Positions 30,001 through 36,000 of a DNA stretch of 64,000 nt are shown one piece after another. Positions within the stretch are counted from its first letter, which is position 1. The number at the start of each line of letters is the position of its first letter. Origin of the DNA: Escherichia coli. GTDB taxonomy: Bacteria > Pseudomonadota > Gammaproteobacteria > Enterobacterales > Enterobacteriaceae. The stretch lies in NCBI RefSeq assembly GCF_048403405.1, contig NZ_CP183129.1; one strand, written 5' to 3'. The position numbers are program-made.

Positions 30001-33000
30001 CCTGAAGCCATGGCGTACGTACTGTTACGTCCGCTGCTTGATGATGTGCCGGAGGATGAACTGTGCGGCGTAGCGCCCGGAAGAGTATTGCCGGTATCAG
30101 AGCAATGGCATCCACTGTTAATTGAGGCGTTAACCAGCATTCCAAAACTCGAAGCCGGAGACTCCGTCTGGTGGCACTGCGACGTCATCCATTCCGTTGC
30201 CCCCGTTGAAAATCAACAGGGTTGGGGCAACGTGATGTACATTCCTGCGGCACCGATGTGCGAGAAAAATCTTGCCTACGCGCACAAGGTGAAGGCCGCA
30301 CTGGAAAAAGGCGCATCGCCGGGCGACTTCCCGCGCGAGGACTATGAAACAAACTGGGAAGGACGCTTTACGCTTGCCGACCTCAACATTCACGGTAAGC
30401 GAGCGTTGGGAATCGACAGCTGAGTGTCGTACAGCCCTTCCCGTTCCACGGCGGTGTTCCCTTTTCCTGGGCGAACCCGCCGCACTGACTCCCGCACCGC
30501 CAATCGTCCGTGCAGCAGCAGCGAGCCCACCGGAGCATCCGGGCGAATCAGCCGCTGTTGCAACATTTGCACCGCTTCATTGCCTAGCTCATCGCGTGGC
30601 ACATGCACAGCCGTCAGGGGAACATCCTCGATTGCCGCAAGGTTAAAGCCGTCGATACTCATCACCGAGACATCCTGTGGTACGCGCAGACCACGACGAT
30701 GTAGCGCATTTACCGTTCCCGCCGCCATAAAATCCCCGCCGACCAGAAACGCCGTCGGCAACGTCTTGCCATTGGCGGCATCCAGCCACGCTCCGACCTT
30801 TTCTTCCGCTTCTTTAGCGCTAAAACTGCTGATATTCAGCAAATGACGGTCATGGTGAAAGGCCAGATTATGCTGACGCCATGATTCTTTAATCCCTGCA
30901 AACCGCTGCTCCATAGTGTAGCGGCGCAGGCACATCACATTCATCACCTCCCGGTGACCCATTTCAAACAGATAGCGGGCGGCGAACGCGCCAATTAACC
31001 GATGGTCCGGCGCAATCGCCGGGAGGCGCATTCGTTCATCACGGCAGTTGATCAGCACACAAGGCTTAGCGAGATCGGCGGCCAGATCATGGATGTGCGG
31101 ATCGTCAATCCCCAGCAGGATCGCCGCCTGCGTATCTGCTTCATTCATCCGCGAGAGAAATAGCGCGGGATCGCTGTCAAACTCCTCCAGCGCGCAGTAA
31201 CGCAGCCGCACTTCATGCGGCGATAACGCTTTGCTGATGCTCTGGATCACACGGTAATAAAAGATATCAGATCGTTGGTCAAAAGCGCGTTGCGGCGCGA
31301 AAATAATCAGGTTATTCAGCAACATACGACCTGCTGCCATGCCATCCATCACGCCCAACTCACGCGCGCAGGCCAGCACCTGTTCGCGAGCGCGTGCACT
31401 GGTATTCGCTTTGCCAGCCAGCACCCGCGAAACCGTACTCGGCGATAGCCCGGTACGTGCGGCGATATCGGCGATTTTCAGCTTCTTGTCCATTTTGTGA
31501 TCTGCCTCTAATTCGGAAATGACAGAATTTTCATGAGCAAAAAAGCCCATTCTGTCTGGCATTAAATCCATTTCAGTAATGTATATCAGTCACTCATGGA
31601 AAAACGTGCACAAAACCCGCTTTCTTTCGCTTTTAGGGTCTCTTACTGTGAATTGGTAGAACAACTTCCATACAAAAATAATGGAAAAATGAACAATAAA
31701 GACTTTATTTATCAAAAAGTTAAAAGTGGTGTGACAACTCCATTCTGACGTTGCCGCACAAACCCTATACCATTCTGTGGAGTGCATATGAGTCAGGGTA
31801 TCAATAACGATATGACTGCCAGTAAACCGCGCCATATCGTCAAAAATCTGCGTTGGTGGATACTGGTCCTTTTTTTGCTCGGTGTTACTGTCAACTACAT
31901 CACGCGTAACTCGCTGGGTATTCTCGCCCCCGAACTGAAAAGCAGCCTGGGGATTACCACCGAACAATATTCCTGGATTGTAGGTGCTTTCCAGCTCGCC
32001 TATACCCTATTCCAACCGTTGTGTGGATGGCTGATTGACGTCATTGGCCTCAAACTGGGCTTTATGATCTGCGCGGGACTGTGGGCGCTGGCCTGTCTGA
32101 TGCATGCGGGGGCGGGAAACTGGGTACATCTGGCGCTGTTGCGCTTCTTTATGGGCGGTGCGGAAGCCGCGGCAACCCCAGCAAACGCCAAAACCATCGG
32201 TGAATGGTTTCCAAAATCAGAACGCCCGATCGCCGCAGGCTGGGCAGGCGTCGGTTTTTCCATCGGTGCCATGCTGGCCCCACCGATTATCTATTTTGCC
32301 CACGCTTCATTCGGCTGGCAGGGTGCATTTATGTTCACTGGCATCCTGGCGATGCTGTGGGTGGTGCTGTGGTGGGCGTTCTATCACAACCCGGATAAGC
32401 ATCCTAACCTCAGCAAAGCCGAACTGGACTTTATCCGCCAGGATAACGAAGCGCCCCCTGTCAAGTTACCCTTTCTGACCGCACTGAAAACCGTAGGCAA
32501 AAATAAACGCTTTTACGGTATCGCTATCCCGGCCTTTATGGCAGAACCGGCGTGGGCGGTGATGAGTTTCTGGGTTCCGCTATACCTGTCCAAAACCTAT
32601 GGCATGGACCTGAAGCAGATCGCATTATTCGCCTGGTTGCCGTTCCTCGCCGCTGATCTTGGCAGTATTGCCAGCGGCTATCTGACCAAACTTTACACCC
32701 GCCTGTTTGGGCTGAGTCGTGTGAACTCCGTTGTCGCATCATCGGTCAGTGGCGCATTCCTGATGGTTTCGCTGGCGGTGATGGCCTTTACCAATAACCC
32801 GTATATCGCCATCGTCCTTATTTCCATCGGCGGCTTCGGTCACCAGATCATCTCCTGCATGCTGAGCGCACTGGTGGTGGAATCCTTCGACAAAGGTCAG
32901 ATGGCCACTGTTAACGGCATGCGCGGTTCTGCCGCGTGGATCGCAAGTTTCCTGTTCTCCCTGATTATCGGGGTTACCGCTGACAAAATCGGCTTTAACC

Positions 33001-36000
33001 CCCTGTTTATCGCCATGGGCTTCTTTGACCTGATTGGCGCTTTCTTCCTGGTCACCTTTATTGCTGAACGTCGCGCAAAACGCGCCTGAGAGTGGATGTA
33101 AACATGAAAACGCTGAAAAACTGGACCCTGCACAAACAGTCTGCCCACCACGTTGAACTGCTGGTCGATGGCCAGCATATCCTGTGCCTGTACGTGCTGG
33201 AAGAAAATCTGTTCCGCGTGCTGTTAAAACGCAAAGGCGAGCTGGCGCTGGATCGCACCTGGAGCATTGCTCCGGCGCAGGATGTGCCATGGGAAGGGCG
33301 CAGCCGCGAAGATCTCAGCGGCTTTAGCCTGCCCGCGTGGACATTGATCCAGCACGACGACACCGTGGTTATCGCCACCGAGTCACTGCGTGCAACCGTT
33401 CACCAGCCGCTGTGGCTGGAGTGGCACTATCGTAACAACGAAGGCGAATGGCTGCCGTTGGTGAATGACCGTCCGACTAGCGCTTATCTGCTGAATGCCC
33501 ACGGCGATGGCGTGGCACACTATCAGAGCCGTCGTAAAGATGAACGCTTTTATGGCCTCGGAGATAAAGCCGGCGACCTGCAACGCAACGGTAAACGTTA
33601 CGAGATGCGTAACCTCGACGCGATGGGCTACAACGCCGTTAGTACTGACCCGCTGTACAAACACATTCCATTCACCATCACCCGCCGCGATGACATTAGC
33701 TTCGGCCTGTTTTATGACAACCTCAGCAGCTGCTGGCTGGATCTGGGCAACGAGATCGACAACTACCACACCGCCTATCGCCGCTGGCAGGCGGAAGCGG
33801 GTGATATCGACTACTACCTGTTTACCGGCGAACGCGTACTTGATATCACCAAATCCTTCGTACGCCTGACCGGAAAAACCCTGTTCGGACCGAAATGGAG
33901 CCTGGGCTACAGCGGTTCAACTATGCACTACACCGATGCGCCGGACGCACAAAATCAGTTGATGAACTTTATCCGCCTGTGTGAAGAACATGCAATTCCC
34001 TGCGATTCGTTCCAGCTCTCTTCCGGTTATACCTCAATTAACGGCAAGCGCTATGTGTTCAACTGGAATTACGACAAAGTGCCGCAGCCGAAAGTGATGA
34101 GCCAGGCATTTCACAATGCTGGTTTGCACTTGGCCGCCAATATCAAGCCGTGCCTGTTGCAGGATCACCCACGCTATAACGAAGTGGCAGAAAGAGGACT
34201 GTTCATCCGTGATTCAGAAACAGATGAACCAGAACGTTCCAGCTTCTGGGATGACGAAGGTTCTAACCTCGACTTTACTAATCCGCAGACCATCCAGTGG
34301 TGGCAGGAAGGCGTGACCACACAGCTTCTGGAGATGGGTATCGACTCCACCTGGAACGACAACAACGAATTCGAAGTATGGGACGGTGAAGCACGCTGTC
34401 ACGGCTTTGGTCAGACGATCGCGATCAAACATATTCGCCCGGTGATGCCACTGCTGATGATGCGAGCCTCGATGGAAGCCCAGCAACGTTTCGCTCCGGA
34501 AAAACGTCCGTACTTGATCTCCCGCTCCGGCTGCGCGGGAATGCAGCGCTATGTGCAGACCTGGAGCGGCGATAACCGCACTAGCTGGGACACTCTGCGC
34601 TACAACACCCGCATGGGTCTGGGGATGAGCCTCTCCGGGCTGTATAACCTCGGTCACGACGTCGGCGGTTTCTCCGGTGATAAGCCGGACCCGGAACTGT
34701 TTGTACGCTGGGTACAAAACGGCGTGATGCATCCGCGCTTTACGATTCACTCGTGGAACGATGACCATACCGTAAACGAACCGTGGATGTATCCGGGCGT
34801 CACTCCGGCGATCCGCAGCGCTATTGAGTTGCGCTATCGCCTGCTGCCCTACTTTTATACCCTGATGTGGCAGGCATACGCCGATGATGAACCAATGCTG
34901 CGTCCGACTTTCCTTGACCACGAGCACGACGTTCAGACTTTTGAAGAGTGTGATGACTTCCTGCTTGGTCGCGATATTTTGGTTGCCAGCGTCGTAGAGC
35001 AAGGCGAGCGCCAGCGCCGTGTATGGCTGCCAGATAACGAAACTGGCTGGTACGATTTCTACAACGGCGAATGGTTCAGTGGCGGTCAGTGGATCACCCT
35101 CGACGCACCGCTGGAGAAACTGCCGCTGATGGTGCGTGCCGGGGCTGGTCTACCGCTCAGCAAACGCATCACCTATGTGAGCGCAGAACAAGACGATACC
35201 CGCGAACTGAAACTGTTCCCGCTGAAAGGTGTGGGCACAACGTCCGGCCTGCTGTTTGAAGACGATGGCGAAAGCTGGGGCTACCAAACTGGTAATGCGC
35301 TTTGGGTGGAATGGGAAATGGTTTGCGATGGGGCGACCATCAACCTGAAAGTCAACGCGCGCGGGGATTATCGACCTGCATGGAGTGCACTGAAAGTGTC
35401 ATTACCAGTGGAAGAAAAACGCACGCTGCTGGTCAATGGTGTTGAAGGGAGTGAATGGATGCGTTAAATCATTACCGGGGCCGGGAGGCGACTGCGCCTT
35501 ACCCGGTCCAGCCATCGAATCCTTTACCTCAGTATTTCACGCTGCAGGAAGGCAGCAAACCTGTAAACCCCGGGAGCTTAAATAAGTAAGTGACCGGGGT
35601 GAACAGGTGAAGCCAATGCATCTGCCGCATGAAAGACGGCGGGAAATTAACCGTCGATCCCTTTACTACGCAGGTAATCTTCGTAATTACCGCTAAAGTC
35701 GATCACGCGTTCCGGGGTGATTTCCAGAATTCGGGTCGCCAGGGAGCTTACAAACTCACGGTCGTGAGACACAAAGATCAGCGTGCCCTGATACAGTTCC
35801 AGCGCCATGTTCAGCGACTCAATAGATTCCATATCCAGGTGGTTGGTCGGTTCGTCCATGATCAGAATGTTCGGCTTCTGCATCATTAACTTACCAAACA
35901 GCATCCGCCCTTTTTCTCCACCGGAAAGCACTTTCGCTGGCTTTTTGATGTCGTCCTGGCTGAACAGCAAACGACCGAGAATGCTGCGTACCGCCTGCTC

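What the first reader, a model, noticed from the sequence alone, without database searches (positions are those of the whole stretch)
30390..35467. Accessory sugar-utilisation cassette (LacI regulator, ExuT-like permease, GH31 glycosidase) between ybiU and ybiT
From memory ybiU and ybiT are adjacent in K-12. Here three genes sit between them: a minus-strand LacI-family repressor whose 3' end overlaps the ybiU 3' end by 34 nt, then divergently a 433-aa MFS permease of the anion:cation symporter type (resembles hexuronate transporter ExuT) followed within 3 nt by a 791-aa GH31 enzyme (WNDNNE, GHDVGGF motifs). Pairing a GH31 alpha-glycosidase with an acidic-sugar-type permease rather than a GPH or sugar-cation symporter suggests an anionic alpha-glycoside substrate (for example an alpha-linked uronic, sulfonated or phosphorylated sugar). 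GC content looks core-like, so this may be an ancestral locus lost in K-12 rather than a recent import.
Basis: partly seen in the sequence, partly recalled or inferred. Interest (0 to 1): 0.6.

Follow-up and report, generated by a model that had tools for sequence, protein, structure and literature searches.

The report
Predicted alpha-glucuronide utilisation cassette in E. coli
About one in ten E. coli strains keep an ancestral three-gene unit (repressor, ExuT-like transporter, unusual GH31 glycosidase) that most likely imports an alpha-linked glucuronic-acid glycoside and releases glucuronate, an activity not so far described for this enzyme family.

Summary
Between ybiU and ybiT lie a LacI-family repressor (minus strand), and divergently a 433-aa MFS permease and a GH31 glycosidase (787 aa from the conserved ATG). 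K-12 has only a ~240-bp REP-like spacer there. The cassette is in about 575 of 5,426 complete E. coli genomes.

The same ybiU–LacI–MFS–GH31–ybiT order occurs in Enterobacter, Citrobacter, Klebsiella, Kluyvera, Kosakonia and Salmonella diarizonae. It is therefore an ancestral locus lost in most E. coli, not an island.

The permease is 43% identical to the hexuronate transporter ExuT. Orthologues of the GH31 (42–80% identity) repeatedly sit among glucuronate genes: uxaC/uxuB/uxuA, ManD, KdgK/Eda, uronate dehydrogenase plus a glucarate-dehydratase-family gene, and a beta-glucuronidase-like GH2. They are served by MFS, TRAP or ABC transporters.

The enzyme keeps the GH31 catalytic residues. However, the Asp that contacts the sugar 6-OH in glucosidase II is an invariant Lys, and the neighbouring conserved Asp is Ser. 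These changes define a large clade with no solved structure and no characterised member found.

Best reading: a LacI-controlled uptake and hydrolysis system for an alpha-glucuronide. The function is inferred, not demonstrated.

The parts
29158..30423 (+). ybiU (DUF1479 protein), left flank. Its last 34 nt overlap the 3' end of the LacI gene.
   Evidence: RefSeq annotation of the identical record. 99.2% identical to the K-12-type locus up to 30410. Present in 4,308 of 5,426 genomes.
30390..31493 (-). LacI-family repressor, 367 aa from the conserved start. RefSeq WP_000505359.1 starts at 31550 and the maximal ORF at 31571.
   Evidence: NCBIfam gives only sub-threshold matches to RbsR, CytR and PurR. 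Orthologues are 357-374 aa with LacI HTH and periplasmic-binding-protein domains. Start at 31493: conserved 'GATCACAAAATG' and an AGAGG Shine-Dalgarno sequence.
31494..31787 (.). Divergent regulatory region between the LacI gene and the MFS-GH31 operon.
   Evidence: AT-rich (GC 0.42). Blocks are conserved across 14 genera or species.
31519..31534 (.). Candidate operator O1, ATGACAGAATTTTCAT. The cross-genus consensus is the palindrome ATGAAAAAATTTTCAT.
   Evidence: A palindrome is found at the same position in Citrobacter, Kluyvera, Klebsiella, Serratia, Yersinia and Pantoea. 14/16 match to the consensus; only three 16-mers in the 64-kb window score 13/16 or more.
31596..31611 (.). Possible second operator O2, ATGGAAAAACGTGCAC. 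It is weak in E. coli.
   Evidence: Positionally conserved block 'ATGA(A/G)AA...TGCAC' in the alignment. Only 11/16 to the consensus, a score reached 65 times in the window, so support is by conservation only.
31653..31682 (+). Sigma-70-like promoter candidate for the MFS-GH31 operon (TTGGTA-18-AATAAT).
   Evidence: Consensus scan. Overlaps a conserved block. Not experimentally supported.
31788..33089 (+). MFS permease of the anion:cation symporter type, a paralogue of the hexuronate transporter ExuT (WP_000077530.1, 433 aa).
   Evidence: 43% identity to E. coli ExuT over 414 aa, E = 4e-120, with TM1 'YITRN' against ExuT 'YLTRN'. Best NCBIfam match is TIGR00893, 267 bits, below the cutoff. GGAG Shine-Dalgarno sequence 7 nt upstream.
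33104..35467 (+). GH31 glycosidase with a modified -1 pocket (WP_000854253.1, 787 aa). Predicted cytoplasmic retaining alpha-glucuronidase.
   Evidence: Pfam architecture. Nucleophile D419 (WNDNNE) and acid/base D490 (WSGDN) by alignment to GANAB. Signature M274/S306/K348/N420. No NCBIfam equivalog reached. Closest solved structures are alpha-glucosidase II and FjDex31A, E about 1e-79.
35468..35646 (.). Structured spacer between the convergent GH31 and ybiT genes. It replaces the REP-like spacer of K-12-type strains.
   Evidence: RNA fold -78 kcal/mol, z = -5.7 against shuffles. No REP-like palindromes of the kind seen in the K-12-type spacer.
35647..37242 (-). ybiT (ABC-F ATPase), right flank.
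   Evidence: NF011646, 1067 bits, above the cutoff. Homology to K-12-type loci resumes at 35654.

Best explanation
The three genes form a self-contained, repressor-controlled catabolic module for an alpha-linked D-glucuronide. In the absence of substrate the LacI-family repressor binds a palindromic operator in the divergent promoter region. When induced, the ExuT-paralogous MFS symporter imports a small anionic glycoside. The cytoplasmic GH31 enzyme, a retaining glycosidase with the usual Asp nucleophile and Asp acid/base, cleaves the alpha-glycosidic bond with glucuronic acid in its -1 subsite. An invariant Lys (K348) replaces the acidic residue that faces C6 in alpha-glucosidases and would pair with the C6 carboxylate. 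A small Ser/Gly (S306) replaces the conserved Asp next to O4/O6. Released glucuronate enters the core UxaC-UxuB-UxuA-KdgK-Eda pathway, so no further dedicated enzymes are needed. Shown here: gene content, synteny, distribution, ExuT paralogy, catalytic-residue conservation, the covarying residue signature, and the repeated linkage of orthologues to glucuronate genes. Inferred: that glucuronate is the -1 sugar, the roles of K348 and S306, the operator, and the direction of regulation. The aglycone is unknown. Candidates are xylose or xylo-oligosaccharide (aldouronates from glucuronoxylan), glycerol (head group of glucuronosyl-diacylglycerol) and inositol (plant GIPC head group).
For: Permease: 43% identical to ExuT over its full length.

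Genomic association of GH31 orthologues (42-80% identity) with glucuronate metabolism, across three transporter types and two catabolic routes:
- Ruegeria, Nitratireductor, Paracoccus: UxuR/ExuR-like regulator, GH2, TRAP DctPQM, GH31, fructuronate reductase, uxaC, uxuA, with KdgK in Ruegeria.
- The GH2 is a close relative of a solved beta-glucuronidase, 6NCY, E = 1e-178.
- Azospirillum brasilense and Chelatococcus: LacI, GH2, TRAP, GH31.
- Azospirillum B510: uxuA, D-mannonate oxidoreductase, MFS, GH31.
- Novosphingobium: uxuB-like, uxaC, ManD, MFS, GH31.
- Microvirga: uxaC, ABC transporter, GH31, uxuA.
- Burkholderia ubonensis: glucarate-dehydratase family, ABC transporter, GH31, uronate dehydrogenase (PDB Udh, E = 1e-82 to 1e-87), aldose-1-epimerase.
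- Nine Enterobacterales loci (Pantoea, Erwinia, Pragia, Gilliamella and others) have MFS-GH31 directly next to exuR-like/uxaC/uxuB/uxuA and no LacI gene. In Gilliamella the flanks are housekeeping genes.
- A 42%-identical metagenomic member is translationally coupled to a PfkB kinase and an Eda-type aldolase.
- Only mannonate-branch genes (uxuA, uxuB, ManD) appear, never uxaA, which points to glucuronate rather than galacturonate.

Active site: D419, D490, R474, W382, W487, D519 and H549 are retained. CtGII Asp482 and Trp517 contact the 6-OH of the -1 glucose through water, and Asp443 binds the -1 glucose (PMC9061262). By alignment, Asp482 corresponds to K348 and Asp443 to S306. Spacing was checked: +39 and +35 residues in mouse GII, as in CtGII. 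YicI and YihQ keep Asp at the first position and Asn at the second. The package M274/[S,G,A]306/K348/N420 is invariant in 79-80 of 80 Enterobacterales orthologues. Among 150 representatives at 50% clustering, 127 have K348 and those with canonical D306 have D/N/E348 and M/L420.

A mutarotase next to the GH31 and Udh genes in Burkholderia fits release of the alpha-anomer of the catabolised sugar.
Against: No biochemical data exist for any clade member in the library searched. The residue roles rest on sequence alignment to published structures; no model with ligand was examined. A Lys or His can also hydrogen-bond a neutral 6-OH: LlGH31_u1 uses His280. More distant members that share the Ser/Lys signature (39-44% identity) sit in contexts without uronate genes: AraC/GDE_C-like/GPH transporter/PIG-L, and 2-hydroxyacid dehydrogenase/PfkB/DeoC-type aldolase. 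So the signature alone does not prove a carboxylate at C6. Two of eleven non-enterobacterial contexts lack uronate genes: Roseomonas and Caballeronia. Most Enterobacterales loci, including E. coli, carry only the trio, so the link to glucuronate there is by orthology. If the natural sugar is 4-O-methyl-glucuronate, a demethylation step is unaccounted for.
Confidence: 0.55

Rival explanations
1. The enzyme is an alpha-glucosidase (or other neutral alpha-glycosidase) whose aglycone is glucuronate. A disaccharide such as alpha-Glc-(1->x)-GlcA is imported by the ExuT paralogue through recognition of its glucuronate end. It is then split into glucose plus glucuronate.
For: The same genomic associations with glucuronate genes and anion-type transporters apply. 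The closest solved relatives are alpha-glucosidases, GANAB and FjDex31A. Residues that bind O2/O3 of a gluco-configured sugar are retained. CUT1-type ABC transporters in some orthologue loci suggest a substrate of disaccharide size or larger.
Against: The two acidic residues that recognise O4/O6 of glucose in GH31 alpha-glucosidases, and the Asp retained even in YicI and YihQ, are replaced. Changes located in the -1 subsite are not expected if only the aglycone differed. No abundant natural alpha-glucosyl-glucuronate is known to me (own knowledge). The beta-glucuronidase-like GH2 in the same operons fits a 'glucuronide' locus better.
Confidence: 0.22
2. The module handles a different C6- or C4-modified alpha-glycoside, for example a 6-sulfo, 6-phospho or amino sugar. 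The glucuronate linkage of orthologues would then be secondary or specific to other lineages.
For: Distant members with the same Ser/Lys signature lie next to PfkB kinase, DeoC/LacD-type aldolase and 2-hydroxyacid dehydrogenase genes (reminiscent of sulfo-EMP-like or tagatose-like routes), or next to a PIG-L deacetylase. A new GH31 sulfoquinovosidase clade lacking the RWY motif and predicted to use a Lys was reported in 2025 (PMC12780224).
Against: That SqgH clade is reported as close to GH31_3/GH31_6, the YicI type. This enzyme is far closer to GANAB (E = 7e-80) than to YicI (3e-36) or YihQ (1.6e-31). Of the Q/E-RWY motif only the Arg is kept: L305, R316, F319, F523. No sulfoglycolysis, sulfite or phosphatase genes accompany any orthologue sampled. 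There is no PTS component to make a 6-phosphate. Within the orthologue group (42% identity or more) the uronate link is consistent.
Confidence: 0.1
3. An ordinary neutral alpha-glucoside or alpha-xyloside cassette (maltose-, isomaltose- or xyloside-like). The ExuT-like permease would have drifted to a neutral substrate, and the cassette would be a decaying remnant of little functional importance in E. coli.
For: Database names are 'alpha-glucosidase' or 'alpha-xylosidase' in several sources. The cassette has been lost from about 89% of E. coli genomes.
Against: All NCBIfam equivalogs fail their cutoffs: MalA 306 against 800, alpha-xylosidase 230 against 606. The genes are intact in 575 genomes with two allele classes about 2% apart. 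The trio is conserved across at least 572 species-level genomes. The trio has been captured on plasmids. Active-site and context evidence is as above.
Confidence: 0.08

Closest known systems
E. coli YihQ sulfoquinovosidase and the yih sulfoglycolysis cluster (GH31_13)
   Same: A GH31 retaining alpha-glycosidase specialised for a glucose analogue with an anionic group at C6. It is encoded with a dedicated transporter and regulator and feeds a glycolysis-like route. It acts on a small glycoside inside the cell.
   Different: Only distantly related (E = 1.6e-31, 23% identity). YihQ keeps the canonical Asp (D289) and uses the Q-RWY motif; here only the Arg is present. The changes here are Asp-to-Ser and Asp/Asn-to-Lys at other positions. 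The transporter family differs (GPH against ExuT-like ACS). The associated pathway is glucuronate catabolism, not sulfoglycolysis.
E. coli beta-glucuronide system UidR-UidA-UidB (GH2 beta-glucuronidase plus GPH transporter)
   Same: Repressor-controlled import of a glucuronide and cytoplasmic release of glucuronate into the UxaC/UxuAB pathway. In Alphaproteobacteria a UidA-like GH2 is encoded in the same operon as the GH31 orthologue.
   Different: Opposite anomeric specificity is predicted. The glycosidase family differs (GH31 against GH2), as do the transporter and regulator families. The uid system is experimentally established; this one is not.
ExuT hexuronate transporter and the ExuR/UxuR hexuronate regulon
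   Same: The permease is a full-length paralogue: 43% identity, with the same TM1 'TRN' and TM4 'AEAA' motifs. In Pantoea, Erwinia, Pragia and Gilliamella the MFS-GH31 pair lies beside exuR-like, uxaC, uxuB and uxuA genes.
   Different: It is not the ExuT orthologue, since E. coli has exuT elsewhere. In E. coli it is regulated by a LacI-family protein, not a GntR-family one. It is always paired with a glycosidase, which implies a glycoside rather than a free hexuronate as substrate.
GH31 subfamily-1-type alpha-glucosidases (ER glucosidase II GANAB/CtGII, FjDex31A, MalA)
   Same: Closest solved structures (E = 7e-80 to 1e-62, about 30% identity). Same four-domain architecture, same catalytic Asp pair and same O2/O3-binding residues.
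   Different: The residues at the O4/O6 corner of the -1 subsite differ as a covarying package: W/Y to M274, D to S306, D to K348, M to N420.
GH67/GH115/GH4 alpha-glucuronidases with aldouronate transporters (e.g. Geobacillus/Paenibacillus AguA systems)
   Same: The predicted biochemical outcome is the same: intracellular release of (methyl)glucuronate from small alpha-glucuronides after dedicated import (own knowledge of these systems).
   Different: The folds and mechanisms are unrelated: GH67 and GH115 are inverting and GH4 is NAD-dependent, whereas this is a GH31 retaining enzyme. No sequence relationship was seen; Pfam finds only GH31 domains.

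Membership tests
Glycoside hydrolase family 31 | GH31 domain architecture (N-terminal beta-sandwich, (beta/alpha)8 catalytic domain, proximal and distal C-domains) | tested here: met
   Pfam: PF13802 (E = 2.5e-36), PF01055 (4.6e-88), PF21365 (1.4e-22), PF17137 (4.5e-06).
Glycoside hydrolase family 31 | Catalytic nucleophile Asp in the W-x-D-x-N-E motif and acid/base Asp in W-x-G-D | tested here: met
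   D419 in WNDNNE aligns with the GANAB WNDMNE Asp, and D490 in WSGDN with WTGDN. Both are invariant in 11 orthologues and in YicI and YihQ.
Canonical GH31 alpha-glucosidase (GH31_1 type; NCBIfam MalA equivalog) | Conserved Asp residues recognising O4/O6 of the -1 glucose (CtGII D443 and D482), and the equivalog score | tested here: not met
   D443 corresponds to S306 and D482 to K348. NF040948 scores 305.8 bits against a cutoff of 800.
YicI-type alpha-xylosidase | NCBIfam equivalog NF007940 above cutoff; YicI-type K-T-D-F-G-E nucleophile motif | tested here: not met
   229.6 bits against a cutoff of 606. The motif here is WNDNNE, and identity to YicI is 22%.
Sulfoquinovosidase (GH31_13, YihQ) | Q/E-RWY sulfonate-binding motif (YihQ Q288, R301, W304, Y508), as given in PMC12780224 | tested here: not met
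   The aligned residues are L305, R316, F319 and F523, so only the Arg is kept (motif). No sulfoglycolysis genes were seen in any context sampled.
Sulfoquinovosidase (SqgH clade, 2025) | Clade membership near GH31_3/GH31_6; predicted binding residues R302, T377, K412, F513 | tested here: inconclusive
Indirectly unlikely: this enzyme is much closer to GANAB than to YicI, whereas SqgH is reported as close to GH31_3.
Anion:cation symporter (ACS) family MFS; ExuT hexuronate transporter | Full-length homology to ExuT/DgoT-type transporters with the conserved TM1 Arg | tested here: met
   BLASTP against E. coli ExuT: 43% identity over 414 aa, E = 4e-120, with 'YITRN' against 'YLTRN'. TIGR00893 is the best NCBIfam hit at 267 bits.
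ExuT orthologue (free hexuronate transporter) | Orthology or subfamily score, and genomic position beside uxaCA/exuR | tested here: not met
   TIGR00893 score of 267 is below the cutoff of 395. E. coli exuT is a separate gene at the uxaCA-exuR locus.
LacI-family transcriptional repressor | N-terminal HTH plus periplasmic-binding-protein-like effector domain; palindromic operator | tested here: met
   Full-length sub-threshold matches to RbsR, CytR and PurR models. Orthologues carry PF00356, PF00532 and PF13377. A conserved 16-bp palindrome lies in the divergent promoter. Binding was not tested.
Alpha-glucuronidase (functional class, EC 3.2.1.139-like) | Hydrolysis of alpha-D-glucuronosyl linkages | not testable with these tools
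   Predicted only, from gene context and active-site substitutions. An enzyme assay is required.
Genomic island / recently imported mobile element | Integrase, tRNA or IS association, atypical composition, absence from related genera at the same site | tested here: not met
   No mobility genes lie between ybiU and ybiT. GC3 is similar to the flanks. The position is the same in Enterobacter, Citrobacter, Klebsiella, Kluyvera, Kosakonia, Salmonella diarizonae and others.

The most novel reading that the evidence does not exclude
This E. coli enzyme is a member of a very large, structurally unsampled GH31 clade of retaining alpha-glucuronidases. The clade would be defined by a Lys/Ser-remodelled C6/C4 pocket, and this would add a new activity to GH31. 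With its ExuT-derived permease it would form the alpha-anomer counterpart of the classical uid (beta-glucuronide) system. Cassette-positive E. coli lineages and many plant-, gut- and marine-associated Proteobacteria could then use plant or algal alpha-glucuronides (xylan-derived aldouronates, or the head groups of glucuronosyl lipids), for which no such catabolic route has been described in Enterobacteriaceae.
Probability: 0.45. Interest if true: 0.75.

Novelty: new variant of a known kind. Interest (0 to 1): 0.62.

Why it matters
If the prediction holds, there are four consequences.

1. GH31 gains a new substrate class (alpha-glucuronides). A clade found in at least 572 species-level genomes and more than a hundred 50%-identity clusters gets a function and a simple diagnostic signature (NIKP Lys, SSGY Ser, WNDNNE).

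2. E. coli gains a defined metabolic polymorphism. It has three allelic states at one locus, is ancestral, and has been lost from about 89% of sequenced strains. It could bear on niche use of plant-derived acidic sugars in the gut or environment.

3. It would offer a genetic basis for alpha-glucuronide use in Enterobacter and Klebsiella, which is relevant to hemicellulose-hydrolysate fermentation.

4. It would be a second, independent example, after sulfoquinovosidase, of GH31 adapting to a C6-anionic glucose analogue by a different structural solution.

If the prediction fails, the locus is still a clean example of ancestral gene loss in K-12.

Tried and rejected
Literature: ten full-text searches found no characterisation of this cassette, of a GH31 alpha-glucuronidase, or of glucuronosyl-glycerol or GlcADG catabolism. 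One Gilliamella paper merely notes a GH31 gene near uronate genes.

Papers not held: the GH31 subfamily paper (PMC10074150), the SQase structure paper and the Enterobacter asburiae JDR-1 paper. As a result the CAZy subfamily was not assigned. Two leads stay as unverified recollections: JDR-1 ferments methylglucuronoxylose, and a Paenibacillus 'amylouronate' alpha-glucuronidase has possible GH31 affinity.

aec-35 to aec-37 lead: the recalled trio in the selC island of BEN2908 could not be checked, because no term hits were found.

Polarising the insertion/deletion event from the altered last codons of ybiU and ybiT: inconclusive, because both variants occur among cassette-bearing genera.

CRP site in the promoter: nothing convincing.

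Glycerol as aglycone: suggested only by glpK/glpD adjacency in one Caballeronia plasmid and not seen elsewhere, so kept only as a candidate.

Sulfoquinovosidase reading: rejected on motif, relatedness and context.

Phylogroup mapping: the reference accession tried (UMN026) is not in the collection, so phylogroups were not assigned.

Structure prediction and fold search were not run. The tools return no coordinates, so they could not test residue geometry.

Full report
**1. What is there.**
- Window 30390-35467 contains three genes between ybiU (29158-30423, +) and ybiT (35647-37242, -).
- The first is a LacI-family regulator on the minus strand. Divergently there is an MFS permease (31788-33089, 433 aa) and a GH31 glycosidase.
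- The window is 100% identical to E. coli TUM14771. RefSeq annotates these genes there as WP_000505359.1, WP_000077530.1 and WP_000854253.1.
All homologues and RefSeq start at ATG 33104 (787 aa), 14 nt after the permease stop.
- The LacI start conserved across genera is 31493, with an AGAGG Shine-Dalgarno sequence. RefSeq uses 31550.
- The 34-nt overlap of the LacI and ybiU 3' ends is real.
- Pfam finds the full GH31 architecture.

**2. Presence and absence in E. coli.**
- In a K-12-derived genome ybiU and ybiT are neighbours, separated by about 240 bp of REP-like sequence. Homology with the window ends at 30410 and resumes at 35654.
- The cassette is found in 575-577 of 5,426 complete genomes. 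It is always chromosomal, in two allele classes: 487 genomes at 99% identity or more, and 89 at 95-99%, about 98% in the rows listed.
- ybiU itself is present in 4,308 genomes.
- The locus therefore has three states: ybiU plus cassette (about 10.6%), ybiU only (about 69%), and neither (about 20.6%, for example UM146, where ybiV abuts ybiT).

**3. Ancestral or imported?**
- A scan of one genome per bacterial species found at least 572 genomes encoding a relative. The best 80 were tabulated.
- The order ybiV-ybiU-LacI-MFS-GH31-ybiT-ldtB is conserved in 22 loci. These come from Enterobacter, Citrobacter, Pseudocitrobacter, Klebsiella, Kosakonia, Siccibacter, Silvania, Kluyvera and Salmonella enterica subsp. 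diarizonae.
- Cedecea, Buttiauxella and Mangrovibacter have LacI-MFS-GH31-ybiT-ldtB without ybiU.
- The E. coli GH31 is 86-91% identical to all of these, with no near-identical donor. GC3 is close to that of the flanking core genes.
- There are no mobility genes in the cassette.
- The best reading is an ancestral Enterobacteriaceae locus that has been lost repeatedly in E. coli.
- Whether some E. coli lineages regained it by homologous recombination was not resolved. The altered terminal codons of ybiU and ybiT do not polarise the event.
- The trio also occurs at other chromosomal sites in Serratia, Yersinia (including Y. pestis), Pectobacterium, Dickeya, Rahnella, Hafnia and Edwardsiella.
- It occasionally occurs on plasmids.

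**4. The permease.**
- It is 43% identical to E. coli ExuT over its whole length (E = 4e-120). It shares the TM1 'Y-x-TRN' and TM4 'AEAA' motifs.
- It falls below the TIGR00893 cutoff, and E. coli has its own exuT at the uxaCA-exuR locus.
- It is therefore an ExuT paralogue. Because it is always paired with a glycosidase, it presumably carries a glycoside that includes a hexuronate-like moiety.

**5. What the orthologues are linked to.**
- This is the main functional evidence. Outside Enterobacterales, nine of eleven annotated contexts place the GH31 orthologue (44-59% identity) directly among glucuronate or glucuronide genes.
- Ruegeria, Nitratireductor and Paracoccus carry a UxuR/ExuR-like regulator, GH2, TRAP DctPQM, GH31, fructuronate reductase, uxaC and uxuA, with KdgK in Ruegeria.
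- Azospirillum brasilense and Chelatococcus carry LacI, GH2, TRAP and GH31.
- Azospirillum B510 has uxuA, D-mannonate oxidoreductase, MFS and GH31.
- Novosphingobium has uxuB-like, uxaC, ManD, MFS and GH31.
- Microvirga has uxaC, ABC transporter, GH31 and uxuA.
- Burkholderia ubonensis links the GH31 to the oxidative route. It has a glucarate-dehydratase-family gene, an ABC transporter, GH31, uronate dehydrogenase (PDB Udh, E = 1e-82 to 1e-87) and a mutarotase.
- The GH2 is a close relative of a solved beta-glucuronidase (6NCY, E = 1e-178).
- Within Enterobacterales, nine loci have MFS-GH31 beside exuR-like, uxaC, uxuB and uxuA genes instead of a LacI gene. These are from Pantoea, Erwinia, Pragia, Gilliamella, a Klebsiella sp. 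and an uncultured lineage.
- A 42%-identical metagenomic member overlaps a PfkB kinase gene that follows an Eda-type aldolase gene.
- Only mannonate-branch genes appear, never uxaA, which points to glucuronate rather than galacturonate.
- The two exceptions are Roseomonas (LacI + ABC + GH31 only) and Caballeronia (MFS + GH31 + porin beside glpK/glpD).
- Three unrelated transporter classes are used. Two of them (ExuT-like MFS and TRAP) are typical carriers of organic anions; this is established knowledge of those families.

**6. The active site.**
- The nearest solved structures are ER alpha-glucosidase II and FjDex31A (E about 1e-79). YicI and YihQ are much more distant. No NCBIfam equivalog is reached.
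- The alignment retains the nucleophile (D419), the acid/base (D490), R474, W382, W487, D519 and H549.
- PMC9061262 states that in CtGII the -1 glucose is bound by Asp443, Trp554, Asp662 and His691. Its 6-OH contacts Asp482 and Trp517 through a water molecule.
- The HMMER alignment to mouse glucosidase II shows the same +39 and +35 spacing. On that basis Asp443 corresponds to S306, Asp482 to K348 and Trp517 to W382.
- YicI and YihQ keep Asp at the first position and have Asn at the second.
- Two further changes accompany these. The aromatic residue of 'HQSRW' becomes M274, and the Met after the nucleophile becomes N420.
- The package is invariant in 79-80 of 80 Enterobacterales orthologues.
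- In 150 representatives from a 1.84-billion-protein library, 127 have K348, and with it M274, S/G/A306 and N420 wherever those regions are present. Those with canonical D306 have D/N/E348, M/L420 and an aromatic 274.
- A subclade with G306 has N549 instead of H549.
- An acid-to-base switch at the C6 corner, plus a smaller residue at the O4/O6 Asp position, is what one would expect for a C6-carboxylate sugar, possibly one carrying a 4-O-substituent. This is an inference from alignment, not from a structure.

**7. Limits.**
- More distant clade members (39-44% identity) with the same signature lie in contexts without uronate genes. The signature may therefore mark a broader specificity class.
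- A Lys can also bind a neutral hydroxyl.
- The alternative that glucuronate is the aglycone of an alpha-glucoside cannot be excluded.
- A newly described GH31 sulfoquinovosidase clade (SqgH) was considered. It is reported as close to the YicI-type subfamilies and uses other residues. This enzyme lacks the RWY motif and any sulfoglycolysis neighbours.

**8. Regulation.**
- The 294-bp divergent region contains a palindrome conserved across genera, with consensus ATGAAAAAATTTTCAT. In E. coli it is ATGACAGAATTTTCAT at 31519-31534, a 14/16 match; only three 16-mers in the 64-kb window score 13/16 or more.
- A second, weaker copy lies at 31596-31611. A promoter-like site lies at 31653-31682.
- No convincing CRP site was found.
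- The half-site TGAAAA resembles LacI-family operators (own knowledge). Binding is untested.

**9. Verdict.**
- This is an ancestral, now accessory, LacI-controlled module. Its permease derives from the hexuronate transporter. Its GH31 enzyme belongs to a large clade with no solved structure and no characterised member found.
- Orthologues of that enzyme are consistently wired to glucuronate catabolism.
- The most likely function is uptake and hydrolysis of an alpha-glucuronide (confidence about 0.55). The main rival is an alpha-glycoside with glucuronate as aglycone (about 0.22).
- It is a new variant of a known kind, and its function is predicted, not demonstrated.

Noticed in passing
K-12-type allele of the ybiU-ybiT spacer (hits H5, H6, H10, H12, H16, H20; corresponds to window 30411-35653): In many cassette-less genomes an IS110-family IS621 transposase is annotated in the REP-like ybiU-ybiT spacer. 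This fits the REP-targeting habit of that element (own knowledge).
   Followed up: no
L002 (E. coli UM146), 7982-10589; corresponds to window 29007-35646: A third allele lacks ybiU as well as the cassette: ybiV is followed by a REP-like spacer and then ybiT. About 20.6% of complete genomes lack ybiU.
   Followed up: partly
L011 (E. coli plasmid pCD90-1-1, IncI-gamma/K1), 6332-11382; also H68, H69 (E. albertii), H64, H66 (Klebsiella plasmids): The same LacI-MFS-GH31 trio (GH31 84.7% identical to the window's) sits in plasmid backbones between dsbC-like and ssb genes. The module is therefore occasionally mobilised.
   Followed up: partly
Hit H60 (E. coli strain IH5, NZ_CP168949.1), matching window 32630-33607: A 978-bp fragment spanning the MFS-GH31 junction occurs at 99.5% identity in three places in one genome, next to a phage capsid cement protein gene. 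This may be a fragment carried by a prophage.
   Followed up: no
L096 (MAG labelled Collinsella sp., 1.9-kb contig): A contig 100% identical to the E. coli GH31 gene is binned into an actinobacterial MAG. This is almost certainly a binning or contamination artefact.
   Followed up: no
window 35468-35646: The spacer between the convergent GH31 and ybiT genes folds unusually well (-78 kcal/mol, z = -5.7), with a GC-rich hairpin right after the GH31 stop but no U-tract. It may be a bidirectional terminator or an RNA-stabilising element.
   Followed up: partly
window 30390-31571: The RefSeq start of the LacI gene (31550) and the maximal ORF (31571) both extend upstream of the start conserved across genera (31493). 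They would place candidate operator O1 inside the coding sequence, so this is probably a start-site misannotation.
   Followed up: yes
L068 (Yersinia pestis NCTC5923), 7073-12349: Y. pestis retains an apparently intact LacI-MFS-GH31 trio (GH31 75% identical), which is notable in a genome known for gene decay.
   Followed up: no
L101/L102 (metagenome-derived, GH31 40% identical, same Ser/Lys signature): A distant clade member is in an operon with a GDE_C-like protein, a GPH-family (MFS_2) transporter and a PIG-L-family deacetylase under an AraC regulator. This suggests a different substrate, possibly one containing an N-acetylated amino sugar, within the same GH31 clade.
   Followed up: no
L013 (Caballeronia sp. 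NK8 plasmid), 7690-16692: Here MFS-GH31 is followed by a porin gene and lies next to glpK, a glycerol-3-phosphate dehydrogenase gene and a DeoR regulator. This is a single hint that glycerol could be the aglycone (alpha-glucuronosyl-glycerol).
   Followed up: partly
window 25613-28045 and upstream: The cassette lies just downstream of ybiW, a glycyl-radical enzyme gene whose activase gene ybiY lies upstream of it in the related loci, and of ybiV, a sugar phosphatase gene. This neighbourhood is conserved with the cassette across genera. No functional connection was examined.
   Followed up: no
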